A stretch of 8,454 nt of DNA from Escherichia phage If1. This document shows positions 4,834 to 8,432 of this stretch, in pieces (the stretch's first letter is position 1; every line of letters begins with the position of its first letter). The notes below the pieces were generated by a model, which was given only the letters and a program-made list of their open reading frames with translations, had not been told where the DNA came from and did no database searches. The stretch lies in the sequence record NC_001954.1; one strand, written 5' to 3'. The position numbers and the translations under genes were made by a program.

Positions 4834-4929
4834 TCCCGTAGCACCGGCGTTCTCCCTGCGCAGCGGGGGGAACGTTGGTGAGAAGGGCGCTCAGACAGGA
4901 AAATCCCTCCCGATTATCAGGTGGAACAA

Positions 4930-4947
4930 ATCCTGTTTTCACAGGAT
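4930..4947 (+). other. Stem-loop in the gene IV-proximal intergenic region (candidate packaging-signal or minus-strand-origin structure)
   Basis: ATCCTGT(4930-4936)-TTTC-ACAGGAT(4941-4947), a perfect 7-bp stem with a tetraloop and no following T-tract. Confidence 0.35.
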
Positions 4948-5060
4948 ATACAGTAAGACTCACATCATCATAAATACAAAGCGAGACGGGTATCGTAAGA
5001 GTTGCCATGTAGCATTTCCTTTGTGCTGTTGAATTTGTGGGTGCATTTGCACGCGAAGCG

Positions 5061-5085
5061 GTTCGGGGTTCTGTGACACCCGAAC
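5061..5085 (+). other. Stem-loop (7-bp stem, 11-nt loop) in the intergenic region
   Basis: GTTCGGG(5061-5067)...CCCGAAC(5079-5085), read directly from the sequence. Confidence 0.35.
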
Positions 5086-5088
5086 TTT

Positions 5089-5112
5089 ACCGTGGTTTCC
5101 CACGGTATTTTT
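5089..5112 (+). terminator. Plus-strand rho-independent terminator candidate
   Basis: ACCGTGG(5089-5095)-TTTC-CCACGGT(5100-5106) followed by A then T5 (5108-5112). On the minus strand the hairpin is not followed by a T-run, so it is directional (+). It lies immediately before the 3' end of the minus-strand ORF at 5119. Confidence 0.55.
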
Positions 5113-5118
5113 CTAATC

Positions 5119-5310
5119 TTACTCGCTGGACTTGGTTGTGTGAATCAGATCCTTTTCTGTATCTTTTGCATAATTATCAATCAGATGATTAACGATATCA
5201 GTCCAAGTGATCGCACGTCCAGCGGTATGACTGGCATCGATCGCCAGCCGTTCGAGTTTTAGCTTTCGTTCAGCCACGATAGCCATAGTTGTTCGTTTTG
5301 GAGTTGCCAT
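5119..5310 (-). CDS. Small ribbon-helix-helix-like DNA-binding protein (putative regulator; function unknown)
   Basis: 63 aa from ATG (reverse complement of 5308-5310): MATPKRTTMAIVAERKLKLERLAIDASHTAGRAITWTDIVNHLIDNYAKDTEKDLIHTTKSSE. Short N-terminal beta-strand-like segment (RTTMAIV) followed by two predicted helices, as in the CopG/Arc/MetJ pattern. GGAAG lies 5 nt upstream of the ATG. The ORF track starts at an upstream TTG (5322). The only clearly antisense gene relative to the phage operons. Confidence 0.45.
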   Translation of the reverse strand: MATPKRTTMAIVAERKLKLERLAIDASHTAGRAITWTDIVNHLIDNYAKDTEKDLIHTTKSSE

Positions 5311-5329
5311 CTTAACTTCCAAAGGGTAC

Positions 5330-5379
5330 TCCCGCCGACATAAGGCGGGAGGGGAATTTGGACGGGCTTGAAAAGCCCG
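5330..5379 (+). repeat. Left-end subterminal hairpins of the IS (candidate TnpA recognition structures)
   Basis: Hairpin 1: TCCCGCC(5330-5336)-GACATAA-GGCGGGA(5344-5350). Hairpin 2: CGGGCTT(5363-5369)-GAA-AAGCCCG(5373-5379). They lie just downstream of the tnpA stop (5388-5390 on the minus strand) and are separated by a G-rich motif GGGAGGGGAA. Confidence 0.5.
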
Positions 5380-5387
5380 AAGGGTGA

Positions 5388-5768
5388 TCAGCCACGCTGA
5401 TGTTGAATGTATTGCCTAACAACTTCCAGCGGCGCACCTCCGCAGGAGCCAGCAAAGTATGACCTAGACCAGAGCACGGCTTTTCCGTATGCCCCCCGCA
5501 AATCAAGAAATTCGTTTCGCAGACGGCGGGATGTCACTGCTTTCAGTGAGTTAACCAGTACCGAAAGCTGCACTGTTGGTGGGTATTCGATCAGCATGTG
5601 GACATCATCGTACGTCTCCGTTACTTTCTTTAAGTTCCTCGCCCCAAAATCACGGCAGCACTTCTGCCTGCATACTGATGAAATGGCTGCACAGTGTAAC
5701 TCTCCCAGTATCTTTCGACGGTATTTTGTTACAAAGACGAAGATGAACATGCAAAAGGAAGGCAGCAT
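5388..5768 (-). CDS. tnpA: IS200/IS605-family Y1 (HuH) transposase TnpA
   Basis: 126 aa from ATG (reverse complement of 5766-5768); the track ORF opens at TTG 5831. Core motifs present: ...FVTKYRRK..., ...DDVHMLIEYPP... (HuH-region) and ...LWSRSYFAGSCGGAPLEVVRQYIQHQ (catalytic Tyr region). The first His of the HuH motif reads as Asp (D-V-H). Confidence 0.85.
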   Translation of the reverse strand: MLPSFCMFIFVFVTKYRRKILGELHCAAISSVCRQKCCRDFGARNLKKVTETYDDVHMLIEYPPTVQLSVLVNSLKAVTSRRLRNEFLDLRGAYGKAVLWSRSYFAGSCGGAPLEVVRQYIQHQRG

Positions 5769-5852
5769 GTCTTGAACGATTGATTTTATATTTTTGCATT
5801 GAGGTTGGCCGTAAAAGCAGTAATATTGCAAGAAAATCTAGCTACACACTGA

Positions 5853-6143
5853 ATGATGATGCTAATCCTGAAAGCCTACAAATTCAGACTGGAACCAACG
5901 CCTGAACAGTCGCAGCGTTTGCGGCAGTTATGCGGTTGCGCCCGTTTTGTCTGGAATTTAGGTCTTGCGGAGACAAAGCGCATACTTGACTCAGGCGAAA
6001 AGTTACCTTCGGCTTTCGAGTTGAACCGGAGTGATTACAGTGTGGAAAAAAATGCCGGAATACATCTTCTTACAGGATGCCTATACCGACAATCTGCAAC
6101 AAAAGCTGAAAGACCTGCATACCGCATGGAAACGTTGTTTTGA
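5853..6143 (+). CDS. tnpB: tnpB N-terminal fragment (frame 0), out of frame with the main tnpB body
   Basis: Starts ATGATGATG. MMMLILKAYKFRLEPTPEQSQRLRQLCGCARFVWNLGLAE matches the canonical TnpB/OrfB N-terminal signature (KAYKFRLxPTxEQ...GCARFVWN). Only about the first 60 aa look genuine; the rest of the frame runs to a stop at 6141-6143. Confidence 0.7.
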   Translation: MMMLILKAYKFRLEPTPEQSQRLRQLCGCARFVWNLGLAETKRILDSGEKLPSAFELNRSDYSVEKNAGIHLLTGCLYRQSATKAERPAYRMETLF

Positions 6144-7086
6144 TAAAAAGCTCGCAGCTAAGGCTCCGGTATGGAAACGAAAAAATGAGGGCAGAGACTC
6201 AATCCGTTTTGTGAACTTTGAGAAATATTGCTGCCTTGAAAATCGCAGAGTGAAGCTACCGTCAGGTCTTGGGTGGGTAAAATTCCGGCAATCTCAACGT
6301 GTGAACGGTAAAATCAAAAATGCGACAATCAGTCAGTTAGCGGGACAGTGGTATATCTCGTTTCAGGTTGAAATTGAAACGGCAGAACCAAATCACACAA
6401 GCACAACGATAGTCGGTCTGGATGCTGGCGTGGCTAAACTCGCCACGCTGTCAGATGGCACAGTCTTTGAACCTGTAAACAGTTTTCAGAAAAACCAGAA
6501 GAAGCTGGCGAGACTTCAGCGACAGTTAAGCCGCAAGGTCAAATTCAGCAACAACTGGCAGAAGCAGAAACGCAAAATACAGTGTCTGCATTCCCGTATC
6601 GCAAATATCCGCAGAGACTACCTTCATAAAGTCACAACGACCGTCAGCAAAAACCACGCAATGATAGTCATTGAGGATTTGAAGGTCAGCAACATGTCAA
6701 AGTCAGCAGCGGGTACGGTCAGCCAGCCGGGGCGCAATGTCCGGGCAAAATCAGGTTTAAACCGTTCGATACTGGATCAGGGCTGGTATGAAATGCGCCG
6801 CCAGCTTGAGTACAAACAGCTCTGGCGTGGAGGTCAGGTGCTTGCTGTTCCGCCAGCGTACACAAGCCAGCGTTGCGCGTGCTGTGGTCATACAGCGAAA
6901 GAAAACCGCCTGTCACAAAGTCAATTCAGATGCCAGGTATGTGGATATACAGCGAACGCCGATGTAAATGGCGCTCGTAACATTTTAGCGGCGGGGCACG
7001 CCGTACTTGCCTGTGGAGGGACGATGCAGTCAGACCGCCCGTTGAAGCAGGAACCAGACGCTGAGCAATCAGCCGTCACCCACTAA
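6031..7086 (+). CDS. tnpB: tnpB main body: RuvC-like, zinc-finger RNA-guided endonuclease (IS605 OrfB / OMEGA TnpB)
   Basis: 351 aa in frame +1 relative to the N-terminal fragment. RuvC-I (IVGLDAGV), RuvC-II (MIVIEDLKV), zinc finger (CACCGH...CQVCGY) and RuvC-III ([10 protein letters not shown]) all present. Frame opens just after TGA at 6022-6024, with first start-like codon GTG at 6031. Combined with the N-terminal fragment the protein would be about 410 aa. Confidence 0.85.
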
Positions 7087-7091
7087 TGGGA

Positions 7092-7132
7092 ATCCCCCTC
7101 CTGAGTCACGAAGTGCGAAGGTGGGGGAGGAT
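7092..7132 (+). repeat. Right-end imperfect palindrome / G-rich motif of the IS (candidate RE structure and omega-RNA scaffold 3' region)
   Basis: ATCCCCCTCC (7092-7101) ... GGTGGGGGAGGAT (7120-7132), 6-13 nt after the tnpB stop. It can form an imperfect stem with bulges. It resembles the left-end motif GGCGGGAGGGGAA at 5344-5356. Confidence 0.4.
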
Positions 7133-7140
7133 GTCAATCC

Positions 7141-7315
7141 ACACCTCAGTAGTTTTCTGCTGGCATAAAGCTAAACACTTATGCTCTCCAGTCGTATTCT
7201 GCCGTCATTATAGTTAAACACTTATGCGCTCATATCATTATGCTTGTATACATGCGTAATGCGTGATAGATTTTTGTCATTTCGTAACTGCATACATGTA
7301 TAGGGTGAGTGTTCA
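7141..7315 (+). promoter_or_regulatory. Gene II-proximal intergenic region: candidate plus-strand origin, gene II promoter and operator
   Basis: AT-rich. 13-bp direct repeat TAAACACTTATGC at 7172-7184 and 7215-7227. Palindromes TGTATACA (7245-7252) and ATACATGTAT (7292-7301). Possible -35 TTGTCA (7274-7279). SD-like GGGTGAG before the ATG at 7316. Same position as the plus-strand origin and gene II promoter in Ff phages. Confidence 0.45.
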
Positions 7316-7537
7316 ATGTTTTTTGACTGGCTGACTATTGAACAGGATTTTGGCTTTCAGCTACCGATTTTGAGTGATGTTGCCTATCAGCGCATCCACC
7401 TCGAAAGCGGGGAAGCGTCAGCTCTGAGTCAGCCAACTTTTCAGCACAAAGGATCTTTTTGTGATGGTTGTTTCGATCTCTATCCGAGGCTCATTGCTGA
7501 AAGTCTCTGGAAATCCTTCCCGGTGGGGGCGTCTTGA
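7316..7537 (+). CDS. II: Gene II replication initiator, N-terminal segment (frame 2), ahead of an apparent frameshift
   Basis: MFFDWLTIEQDFGFQLPILSDVAYQRIHLESGEASALSQPTFQHKGSF... Start and N-terminal pattern resemble M13 pII (MIDMLVLRLPF...). The genuine part probably ends at F48 (7457-7459); the track ORF continues out of frame to 7537. Confidence 0.7.
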   Translation: MFFDWLTIEQDFGFQLPILSDVAYQRIHLESGEASALSQPTFQHKGSFCDGCFDLYPRLIAESLWKSFPVGAS

Positions 7538-8432
7538 TAATTTATTTGGCCTTCCAACTTTGGATTCCTGTGTATCGGTTTTCAATACGATCCTTGCTGA
7601 AATAGGTTTACCTCAGTTTACGAAATGTAAGAGGCTTATGCCCGGCCAGGCAAAAGAGAATGAGAAAGCACCTCTTGTTGCTGACGGTGCAATTATTAAA
7701 GAAGTACATATCACCTCGAACAGGGCGGCAGGTAAGGGGAATGAAGATGACTATATTTCAGGTTTATCTACGCAACCCTACAGGAACAGCGTTCCACGGC
7801 TACACTCCAATGGAAAATCCGTTGACTGGCTGTCTAAAAAAGGCAATGTAAACCTCATATATCCAACGGTTTACAATAAAGCTCATGAAATGGAACTCCA
7901 TTCTTTGACAAAGATAAAGAATCGTTTTTCCGAACAATCTCGGGAATACAATTACCTACTCGATATTATATCTTTCTGCAAAGAGAATGGGGTCGTAAGG
8001 TTTGAGCAAAAGCTGAAATCCAGATTTTTGCAAAAGAATGCGCTCAATTACTGGGGGCTTTCTGATTATTCCATTTTAAATAAGTTACATTCTGATTTTC
8101 TTGAACTTGATAAAAAGTTATCGGTGAATGCTATGGACTTTGAAACTATCAGTGATCATCTTGTAAGTAGTGGGGTTGTTGAAACCACCCGTGCAGCAAA
8201 TACTACCGCAATGTATGCAATACAGTGGTTTCACGGTCATGTATTTGACTTCAACAAAAAACAGGTTCAGACACATCGGGCGCGGTTACGAAAAATTGGT
8301 ATCGACATTGCGCAGAAATGCAATGTTTCTAAATTCTCTCCTGTGATTGTGAAACAAACACGGGAAATTAAGGTGCAGGAGTGCGTTGCACCATCATGGT
8401 ATGTACGTCCGTCACATTTACGCGTTGCATAG
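7461..8432 (+). CDS. II: Gene II replication initiator (rolling-circle nickase), main body (frame 0)
   Basis: 323 aa. SISIRGSLLKVSGNPSRWG aligns with M13 pII CVEIKASPAKVLQGHNVFG, and RFEQKLKSRFLQKNAL with M13 RFEARIKTRYLKSF. Stop TAG at 8430-8432. Frame opens after TGA at 7425-7427. Confidence 0.9.
   Translation: MMVVSISIRGSLLKVSGNPSRWGRLDNLFGLPTLDSCVSVFNTILAEIGLPQFTKCKRLMPGQAKENEKAPLVADGAIIKEVHITSNRAAGKGNEDDYISGLSTQPYRNSVPRLHSNGKSVDWLSKKGNVNLIYPTVYNKAHEMELHSLTKIKNRFSEQSREYNYLLDIISFCKENGVVRFEQKLKSRFLQKNALNYWGLSDYSILNKLHSDFLELDKKLSVNAMDFETISDHLVSSGVVETTRAANTTAMYAIQWFHGHVFDFNKKQVQTHRARLRKIGIDIAQKCNVSKFSPVIVKQTREIKVQECVAPSWYVRPSHLRVA
8133..8432 (+). CDS. X: Gene X product (in-frame internal start within gene II)
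   Basis: In-frame ATG at 8133 (MDFETISDHL...) preceded by GGTGA at 8123-8127. 99 aa. Same relative position and size as M13 pX (111 aa). Confidence 0.5.
   Translation: MDFETISDHLVSSGVVETTRAANTTAMYAIQWFHGHVFDFNKKQVQTHRARLRKIGIDIAQKCNVSKFSPVIVKQTREIKVQECVAPSWYVRPSHLRVA

What the first reader, a model, noticed from the sequence alone, without database searches (positions are those of the whole stretch)
5119..5322. Orphan minus-strand RHH-like ORF between gene IV and the IS, antisense to all phage operons
Ff phages encode nothing in this intergenic region and nothing on the minus strand. This 63-aa ORF has the beta-strand plus two-helix pattern of CopG/Arc/MetJ-type repressors and antitoxins, a GGAAG ribosome-binding site, and sits immediately beside the IS left-end hairpins, so its promoter must lie within or at the IS end. 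A plus-strand terminator (5089-5112) abuts its 3' end and would shield it from read-through from gene IV. It could be a phage or IS regulator, a lone antitoxin-like gene, or cargo delivered with the IS. No partner toxin ORF is adjacent.
Basis: partly seen in the sequence, partly recalled or inferred. Interest (0 to 1): 0.55.

Follow-up and report, generated by a model that had tools for sequence, protein, structure and literature searches.

The report
Phage repressor gene unplugged by IS
The small antisense ORF is a genuine, conserved gene of this filamentous phage. [quoted passage not shown] In this genome a transposable element has inserted exactly at its start codon and cut it off from its own control region.

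Summary

It is not orphan, not IS cargo and not an antitoxin. Two IS-free relatives (95-99% identical) carry it intact. In 21 of 21 other viral contigs the homologue sits 145-390 bp upstream of the gII/RstA replication gene, on the opposite strand. That is the rstR-rstA layout of CTXphi, and some CTXphi "RstR" alleles are homologues.

The IS200/IS605 element (5311-7137) inserted directly against the ATG. It pushed the native Shine-Dalgarno, a TATAAT box and a family-conserved palindrome (now 7138-7315) 1.8 kb away.

Best explanation (about 0.65): an RHH-type, RstR-like repressor of the replication promoter, here disconnected from its control region. DNA binding and expression are untested. The family (phrog_2503) is uncharacterised.

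The parts
5119..5310 (-). Native RHH gene (63 aa plus stop): MATPKRTTMAIVAERKLKLERLAIDASHTAGRAITWTDIVNHLIDNYAKDTEKDLIHTTKSSE
5311..5322 (-). Not part of the native gene.
   Evidence: Empty-site sequence ...GTTGCCAT|TCCACACC... in L004 and L006. Identity to E. coli IS copies.
5303..5310 (+). IS target motif (GTTGCCAT; only ...CCAT is shared by three independent insertions). It contains the ORF's ATG as CAT on the + strand.
   Evidence: Alignment of the window IS with two E. coli copies in other contexts. BLAST matches start at 5303-5306.
5311..7137 (+). IS200/IS605-family element of the InsQ/TnpB type. Left-end hairpins at 5329-5351 and 5363-5379, tnpA 5388-5831 (-), tnpB 5853-7086 (+, split in this record).
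   Evidence: Pfam Y1_Tnp, OrfB_IS605 and Cas12f1-like_TNB. 99.5% identity to E. coli copies. Absent from L004 and L006. Hairpins folded.
7138..7315 (.). Displaced native intergenic control region between the RHH gene and gII
   Evidence: Contiguous with the ORF's ATG in L004 and L006. Nearly invariant in the three If1-like genomes. Footprint across 8 lineages.
7142..7147 (-). Native Shine-Dalgarno GAGGTG of the RHH gene (5 nt from the ATG in the IS-free arrangement)
   Evidence: Reconstruction and empty sites.
7147..7231 (.). Tandem 42/43-bp duplication, each copy with TAAACACTTATGC. GCATAA/TTATGC boxes at 7163, 7179, 7222 and 7238.
   Evidence: the repeat finder. Four boxes against 0.17 expected, and 52 of 2000 shuffles reach that count for any hexamer. 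The duplication is specific to the If1-like lineage.
7207..7212 (-). Perfect TATAAT oriented toward the RHH gene, candidate -10 of its native promoter
   Evidence: Read from the sequence. A -10-like hexamer is conserved at this position in 8 lineages. The consensus scan found no full -35/-10 promoter.
7236..7261 (.). Palindrome (family-conserved core TATGCTTGTATA at 7239-7250), candidate operator
   Evidence: the repeat finder I1. TAYGC-AA-GCRTA conserved in 8 lineages, with symmetric changes on both arms in L014 and perfect 6-7-bp arms in Klebsiella and L024.
7274..7279 (+). TTGTCA, candidate -35 of the gII promoter
   Evidence: Read from the sequence. Inference only.
7316..8432 (+). Replication gene gII. 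This record has a +1 frameshift (extra G at 7466/7467); the gene is intact in relatives.
   Evidence: Pfam G2P_X_C and Phage_CRI. Comparison with L004 and L006.
5053..5112 (+). Ultra-conserved double hairpin directly 3' of the RHH gene.

Best explanation
[quoted passage not shown] It is the functional counterpart of RstR of CTXphi and FpsR of SW1.

In the ancestral, IS-free arrangement it is transcribed divergently from the replication gene gII across a 178-bp control region. As a dimer, or a dimer of dimers, it most likely binds the conserved palindrome and the GCATAA boxes between the two promoters. That would repress gII transcription and probably its own, throttling replication and virion output or silencing an integrated prophage, and giving superinfection immunity.

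In this genome an IS200/IS605 element inserted into the ...CCAT target formed by the gene's own start codon. The coding sequence is intact, but the promoter, Shine-Dalgarno and operators lie 1.8 kb away. The gene can now be expressed only through the IS, for example by read-through from the co-directional tnpA, using the IS-borne GGAAG as its ribosome site, and outside its normal feedback loop.

Shown: gene reality, the fold, the synteny rule, the exact insertion point, and the conserved palindrome. Inferred: DNA binding, repression of gII, and the effect of the IS on expression.
For: Real gene:
- Intact in IS-free relatives, with 4 synonymous and 0 non-synonymous differences.
- dN/dS 0.036 against Dickeya.
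- 97 family clusters at 50% identity.

RHH fold:
- AF2 pLDDT 87.6, with an extended N-terminus and two helices.
- Profile hits to TTHA0139 over the full length (E=0.0023) and to ParG. hhalign to ParG gives 83.6% probability.
- Six members carry two tandem domains.

Slot:
- The homologue is divergent from gII/RstA in 21 of 21 other IMG/VR loci.
- The same holds in Salmonella, saliva, Vibrio, Dickeya, Klebsiella, Yersinia and pre-CTX elements.

Homology to proteins annotated as RstR in CTXphi variants: tblastn 1e-5 and Foldseek TM 0.79.

The slot's function is established experimentally for HTH repressors: RstR alleles repress their own ig-2 promoters (PMC11509585), and FpsR binds the fpsA promoter (PMC4762005).

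Operator-like DNA: a conserved palindrome with symmetric arm changes and a -10 box, and box enrichment.

Close homologues (86-90% identical) lie in integrated prophages.

IS boundaries.
Against: - No experiment on any member of this RHH family was found. PHROGs lists it as unknown function, and I could not link the homologous CTXphi allele to one of the tested, named alleles.
- Pfam, NCBIfam and Foldseek against the PDB gave no significant hit for the protein itself.
- The RHH beta-ribbon cannot be seen in a monomer model.
- The consensus scan found no canonical promoter in 7050-7400.
- The palindrome could instead be a replication-origin element.
- The phage is viable with the gene unplugged. 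That fits a negative regulator but does not prove it.
Confidence: 0.65

Rival explanations
1. A replication accessory factor rather than a repressor. Like TraY/TraM at oriT, or other RHH partners of HUH nucleases, it would bind next to the phage origin and help gII nick or load.
Against: The phage propagates with the gene cut off from its promoter and SD, so native expression is not essential. No Ff-type origin core was found in the window. The same slot holds proven repressors in CTXphi and SW1.
Confidence: 0.12
2. An RHH antitoxin or regulator of the variable cargo gene downstream (for example Fic/Doc), left without its partner in this genome.
Against: Downstream genes differ in every lineage: an HTH protein, unknowns, or nothing. 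The Fic gene is 110-150 bp away, behind a terminator-like hairpin and with its own start region. There are no PADLOC hits. The constant partner is gII, not a toxin. The window has no toxin gene.
Confidence: 0.06
3. A ParG-like centromere-binding protein that segregates the episomal replicative form by binding the repeated boxes.
For: ParG is a recurring sequence hit. The control region holds arrays of short repeated boxes.
Against: No ParF/ParA-type ATPase gene is present in the window or in any relative examined. The similarity is weak. Homologues also occur in integrated prophages, which need no partition.
Confidence: 0.05
4. IS-associated: cargo brought in by the IS, or a regulator of the IS.
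For: It abuts the IS left end and is co-directional with tnpA.
Against: The gene lies outside the IS boundaries. It is present in IS-free relatives. It is absent beside the same IS in E. coli plasmid and chromosome copies.
Confidence: 0.01

Closest known systems
RstR of CTXphi (classical, El Tor and Calcutta alleles) and FpsR of Shewanella phage SW1
   Same: A small gene transcribed divergently from the replication initiator across a short control region with repeated operators. In those phages the protein represses the replication promoter and sets immunity (PMC11509585, PMC4762005). The layout is identical in IS-free relatives of this phage.
   Different: Those proteins are helix-turn-helix (Cro/cI-type). 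This one is ribbon-helix-helix and unrelated in sequence. Repression is untested here. In this genome the layout is broken by the IS.
'Environmental' RstR / RstR-like proteins of some CTXphi and pre-CTX prophages (GQ466611, KR063268, GU942563) and the RstR-like gene of Vibrio phages VAI1/VAI2
   Same: True homologues: 44-46% identity by tblastn (E about 1e-5) and Foldseek TM 0.79. They occupy the same slot next to rstA.
   Different: Different hosts and operator sequences (TTGCATGC boxes rather than GCATAA or TAYGC-AA-GCRTA). They are named RstR by position; I could not confirm that this allele type has been tested.
CopG of plasmid pMV158 and omega of pSM19035 (from general knowledge)
   Same: Small RHH repressors that control the promoter of a rolling-circle or plasmid replication gene, and so copy number, by binding palindromic or repeated short boxes.
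   Different: No detectable sequence relationship beyond the fold. copG is co-transcribed with repB rather than divergent from it.
ParG of plasmid TP228 (PDB 1p94)
   Same: The best recurring sequence match, covering the RHH domain.
   Different: No ParF partner. The helix 1-helix 2 loop is about 6 residues longer. The similarity is weak (E 0.005-0.03).

Membership tests
Ribbon-helix-helix (MetJ/Arc/CopG) superfamily | Strand-helix-helix topology of about 45 residues | tested here: met
Ribbon-helix-helix (MetJ/Arc/CopG) superfamily | Obligate dimer whose two N-terminal strands form the DNA-reading antiparallel ribbon | not testable with these tools
   Only a monomer could be modelled. Indirect support: six family members carry two tandem copies of the domain, and the candidate operator is a palindrome.
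Ribbon-helix-helix (MetJ/Arc/CopG) superfamily | Sequence-specific DNA binding | not testable with these tools
   Needs EMSA or footprinting on 7138-7315.
phrog_2503 (PHROGs, unknown function) | Significant match to the family HMM | tested here: met
   E=5.4e-27 over residues 3-62. All 21 aligned homologues match.
Canonical CTXphi RstR | Helix-turn-helix (Xre/Cro-type) DNA-binding domain | tested here: not met
   The fold is RHH and there are no HTH Pfam hits. It works in the same slot but is not a member of that protein family.
Canonical CTXphi RstR | Encoded divergently from the replication initiator across a short operator-bearing region | tested here: met
   Met in IS-free relatives and in 21 of 21 other loci. 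Broken in the window by the IS.
Canonical CTXphi RstR | Represses the replication-gene promoter and confers allele-specific immunity | not testable with these tools
   Requires reporter and superinfection assays.
Type II antitoxin (RHH class) | Cognate toxin gene adjacent in one operon | tested here: not met
   No toxin gene in the window. Downstream genes vary. Fic is a separate unit in 2 lineages. No PADLOC hits.
ParG centromere-binding protein | Partner ParF/ParA ATPase gene and a partition site | tested here: not met
   No such gene in the window or in relatives.
IS200/IS605 passenger gene | Lies between the IS left and right ends and travels with the IS | tested here: not met
   The gene ends at 5310 and the IS starts at 5311. 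It is present without the IS, and the IS occurs elsewhere without it.

The most novel reading that the evidence does not exclude
The deposited genome is a regulatory mutant of a normally self-limiting, possibly temperate, inovirus. A TnpB-bearing IS has cleanly unplugged the phage's RHH repressor, giving constitutive replication and high virion output. The sequence 3' of the IS right end (7138 onward), together with the ...CCAT motif, matches the uninterrupted site in IS-free sibling phages. The IS-encoded RNA-guided nuclease could therefore cut those siblings at the repressor's start, acting as a gene drive or a weapon between competing phages.
Probability: 0.2. Interest if true: 0.7.

Novelty: new member of a known kind. 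Interest (0 to 1): 0.45.

Why it matters
Ff-like phages are taught as repressor-less, with all genes on one strand. This work shows that the phage and a wide clade of Enterobacterales inoviruses, including integrated prophages of Dickeya, Yersinia and Klebsiella, carry a conserved antisense RHH gene in the slot where CTXphi keeps its repressor. That gives a testable candidate for how these phages limit replication, maintain lysogeny and set immunity groups. It also assigns a likely role to an uncharacterised phage protein family (phrog_2503).

The reference genome is probably atypical as well. It carries an IS insertion at the regulator and likely sequencing errors. This matters to anyone using it as a type sequence.

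Tried and rejected
- Pfam, NCBIfam and PADLOC scans of the protein and its family gave no significant family. The only signals were weak ParG, RHH_9 and RHH_3 hits.
- Rfam found no RNA family in the region, only a sub-threshold RAGATH-18 hit inside the tnpB 3' end.
- I first thought the ATG was donated by the IS, because BLAST identity to other IS copies starts at 5303-5306. The empty sites overturned this: the shared bases are the target motif.
- A search for an Ff-type (+) origin core and for an E. coli dif-like site found none. At most 3 mismatches were allowed, so this is not conclusive.
- I tried to identify which named rstR allele (232, 4**, 5, 6, ZJ, ZHJ) the homologous CTXphi protein is, and whether it was among those tested.
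- A genome-contig scan with the ORF's 5' 31-mer gave 0 hits.
- A plasmid search for a close IS-free replicative form found none.
- Promoter scans gave no consensus promoter facing the ORF in the IS left end or in 7050-7400.

Full report
**What the window is.** The 8454-base window is a complete filamentous-phage genome. It is identical to IMG/VR contig UViG_638275991_000001. It carries genes V, VII, IX, VIII, III, VI, I, IV and II on the + strand, plus an inserted element encoding a Y1 transposase (tnpA) and a TnpB nuclease. From my own knowledge, the major-coat sequence and the genome length match phage If1. No tool confirmed that name.

**Checking the observation.** The ORF exists at 5119-5322 on the minus strand, 67 aa from a TTG or 63 aa from the ATG at 5310. 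Length alone means little, because the window has 83 ORFs of at least 30 aa. Conservation shows it is a gene:
- Two independent IMG/VR contigs, L004 (99% identical) and L006 (95-99%), carry it intact. The differences between them are 4 synonymous and 0 non-synonymous.
- Against a 90%-identical Dickeya homologue there are 27 synonymous and 6 non-synonymous differences, giving dN/dS 0.036.
- A word-indexed search found 36 homologues across Enterobacterales.
- An exhaustive profile search found 97 clusters at 50% identity. Nearly all are 50-100 aa, and six have two tandem copies of the domain.

**The insertion point.** Both relatives lack the transposable element. Their sequence reads ...GGAGTTGCCAT|TCCACACCTCAG..., while the window reads ...GGAGTTGCCAT|CTTAACTTCC...(IS)...GATGTCAA|TCCACACC....

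The IS is therefore 5311-7137. It is 99.5% identical to IS200/IS605 (InsQ/TnpB-type) copies in E. coli. Three independent insertion contexts share only ...CCAT immediately 5' of the left end.

That CAT is the ORF's start codon on the other strand, so the IS sits flush against the ATG. The coding sequence is untouched. The native GAGGTG Shine-Dalgarno lies at 7142-7147.

I first read this the other way, with the ATG donated by the IS, because BLAST identity to other IS copies begins at 5303-5306. The empty sites corrected that.

**Fold.** Pfam, NCBIfam and PADLOC give nothing significant for the protein. PHROGs places it and all 21 aligned homologues in phrog_2503, function unknown.

An AlphaFold model built on 32 sequences is confident (pLDDT 87.6). 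It has an extended N-terminal segment and two helices, 13-30 and 36-62. Foldseek against the PDB found nothing.

Profile searches against PDB sequences hit ParG (E=0.0045). With the deeper profile they hit TTHA0139 over the full length (E=0.0023) and ParG over the whole RHH domain.

In the viral structure library the best matches are a CTXphi 'RstR' (TM 0.79) and the 'putative regulator' of Alteromonas phage phiAFP1 (TM 0.77/0.85). The RHH assignment is well supported. The dimeric ribbon itself could not be modelled.

**Genomic slot.** In every relative examined, the homologue lies just upstream of the replication initiator (gII/RstA, Pfam G2P_X_C) and is transcribed divergently from it. The relatives examined were:
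- a 7.9-kb Salmonella circular element;
- a saliva inovirus;
- Vibrio phage VAI2, where it is annotated 'RstR-like';
- pre-CTX and CTX prophages, where it is annotated RstR;
- tandem integrated prophages of Dickeya and Klebsiella;
- metagenomic contigs;
- an integrated Yersinia prophage.

A systematic scan of IMG/VR returned 22 loci. In 21 of 21 other loci the replication gene starts 145-390 bp upstream on the opposite strand. The window is the sole exception, at 2.1 kb, because of the IS.

This is the rstR-ig2-rstA layout of CTXphi. There RstR alleles repress their own ig-2 promoters allele-specifically (PMC11509585). It is also the layout of fpsR-fpsA in SW1, where FpsR binds the fpsA promoter (PMC4762005). 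Both characterised repressors are helix-turn-helix proteins. The RHH type in the same slot appears uncharacterised. I could not establish whether the homologous CTXphi allele is one of those tested.

**The displaced control region (7138-7315).** It holds:
- a 42/43-bp tandem duplication, 7147-7188 and 7189-7231;
- four GCATAA/TTATGC boxes, against 0.17 expected from the rest of the phage (52 of 2000 shuffles reach that count for any hexamer);
- a perfect TATAAT facing the ORF (7212-7207);
- a 26-bp palindrome (7236-7261);
- a TTGTCA facing gII (7274-7279).

An alignment of this region from eight lineages shows a palindrome at the same position, TAYGC-AA-GCRTA. Its arms are perfect in seven of eight lineages. 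Three different arm sequences occur, and they change symmetrically: TATGC/GCATA, CATGC/GCATG and TACGC/GCGTA. A -10-like hexamer facing the ORF lies about 30 bp beyond it.

More distant lineages with different beta-strand residues have different repeated boxes: GAGTTCA in the Salmonella type and TTGCATGC in the Vibrio type.

This is what operators of a dimeric, specificity-diverging repressor should look like, but it is inference. The simple consensus scan found no full promoter here, and origin functions are not excluded.

**Most likely mechanism.** I put about 0.65 on the following. The protein is an RHH-type, RstR-like repressor that binds between the divergent promoters and limits gII transcription, and probably its own. 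In episomal phages this would throttle replication and virion output. In integrated relatives it would silence the prophage and confer immunity.

In this genome the IS has separated the gene from that circuit. It could still be transcribed by read-through from tnpA, which is co-directional, or from the displaced promoter through the whole IS. The intervening left-end RNA forms two stable hairpins without a good T-run. No convincing outward promoter was found. Expression is therefore undetermined.

The phage is evidently viable in this state, which fits a negative regulator better than an essential replication factor.

**Rival explanations.**
- A TraY/TraM-like accessory factor for the HUH initiator (about 0.12).
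- An antitoxin or regulator of downstream cargo such as Fic/Doc (about 0.06). The constant partner is gII, the cargo varies, and Fic is a separate unit.
- A ParG-like partition protein (about 0.05). There is no ATPase partner.
- IS cargo (about 0.01). The empty sites refute it.

**Data-quality caveat.** The record has a +1 frameshift in the essential gII gene, which is intact in both relatives. It also has nine extra single bases in the IS compared with two E. coli copies, and these split tnpA and tnpB. These look like errors of an old sequence.

The window's two unique adjacent amino-acid changes in the RHH protein are A51T and A52E, and A51 is at least 90% conserved in the family. They could be errors of the same kind, or relaxed selection after the insertion.

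The exact window protein is absent from a 15-billion-protein collection, so it has never been annotated. The A51/A52 form occurs on 379 contigs, always named 'hypothetical protein'.

**Side finding.**
- Its first 36 nt are 100% identical directly 3' of the RHH gene in the Klebsiella lineage and several metagenomic lineages.
- The match extends to 54 nt in Dickeya (100%) and Yersinia (98%).
- It is 98% identical in Alteromonas phage phiAFP1, whose regulator is only about 30% identical.
- It also occurs in about 440 mostly conjugative plasmids, in unannotated DNA.

Synonymous sites in the adjacent gene are saturated, so this module is under much stronger constraint than the coding sequence. My best guess is a host-recognised single-strand signal on the packaged strand, that is, a complementary-strand origin or priming site. 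This is untested.

**Verdict.** The RHH call is right. The 'orphan', 'IS cargo' and 'antitoxin' readings are wrong. It is a new, uncharacterised member of a known kind: a phage replication-gene repressor, here with an RHH fold, caught in a genome where an IS has unplugged it.

Noticed in passing
window 5053-5112 (also L009 6215-6268, L043 9216-9269, L011 6327-6362, L008 15-60, L020 3009-3056): A double hairpin directly 3' of the RHH gene. It is 100% identical over 36-54 nt in lineages whose RHH genes have saturated synonymous sites, 98% identical in an Alteromonas inovirus, and present in about 440 mostly conjugative plasmids in unannotated DNA. Possibly a complementary-strand origin or single-strand priming signal.
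   Followed up: partly
window 7466-7467: An extra G puts gII, an essential gene, out of frame (ORFs 7316-7537 and 7461-8432). Both IS-free relatives have an intact gII, so this is probably a sequencing error in the record.
   Followed up: yes
window 5606-6031: Nine extra single bases (5611, 5638, 5639, 5659, 5667, 5685, 5739, 5841, 6031) relative to two independent E. coli copies of the IS. They scramble the tnpA N-terminus and split tnpB into 5853-6143 and 6031-7086. These are either record errors or a decayed IS.
   Followed up: partly
window 5303-5310 plus 7138-7157: The ...CCAT target 5' of the left end, joined to the sequence just 3' of the right end (TCCACACCTCAGTAGTTTTC), recreates the uninterrupted site of IS-free sibling phages. 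From known TnpB biology, the IS's guide RNA would be expected to target those siblings at the RHH gene's start.
   Followed up: no
window 5158-5163 (codons 51-52 of the ORF): A51T and A52E are unique to this genome. All relatives have AA, and A51 is at least 90% conserved. Both are C-to-T changes on the packaged + strand.
   Followed up: partly
window 4920-4932; L006 168-180 and 385-397: Similarity to both IS-free relatives breaks at about 4930-4932, right after GGTGGAACAAATC. This motif occurs twice exactly in L006, plus one variant. Beyond it the relatives carry different cargo: three minus-strand ORFs in L004 including an HTH protein, and a small ORF in L006. The window keeps only a 26-codon remnant (MATLTIPVSLCIYDDVSLTVYPVKTG, from 5008). 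This looks like a recombination hotspot or cargo slot.
   Followed up: partly
window 4841-4881: A long, near-perfect 18-bp hairpin immediately after gene IV on the + strand. It is in the position of the Ff packaging signal.
   Followed up: no
L001 5067-5801; L043 9314-10048: A 244-aa Fic/Doc-family gene follows the RHH gene in a Salmonella circular inovirus and an integrated Yersinia prophage. It has its own start region behind a terminator-like hairpin, so it is accessory cargo.
   Followed up: partly
proteins P0087, P0113, P0114, P0119, P0129, P0140: Six family members of about 130-147 aa contain two tandem copies of the domain, which could form single-chain RHH pseudo-dimers.
   Followed up: no
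window 7010-7053: A sub-threshold Rfam hit to RAGATH-18 (28.1 bits against a gathering score of 44.9) at the 3' end of tnpB, where the TnpB guide RNA scaffold would be expected.
   Followed up: no
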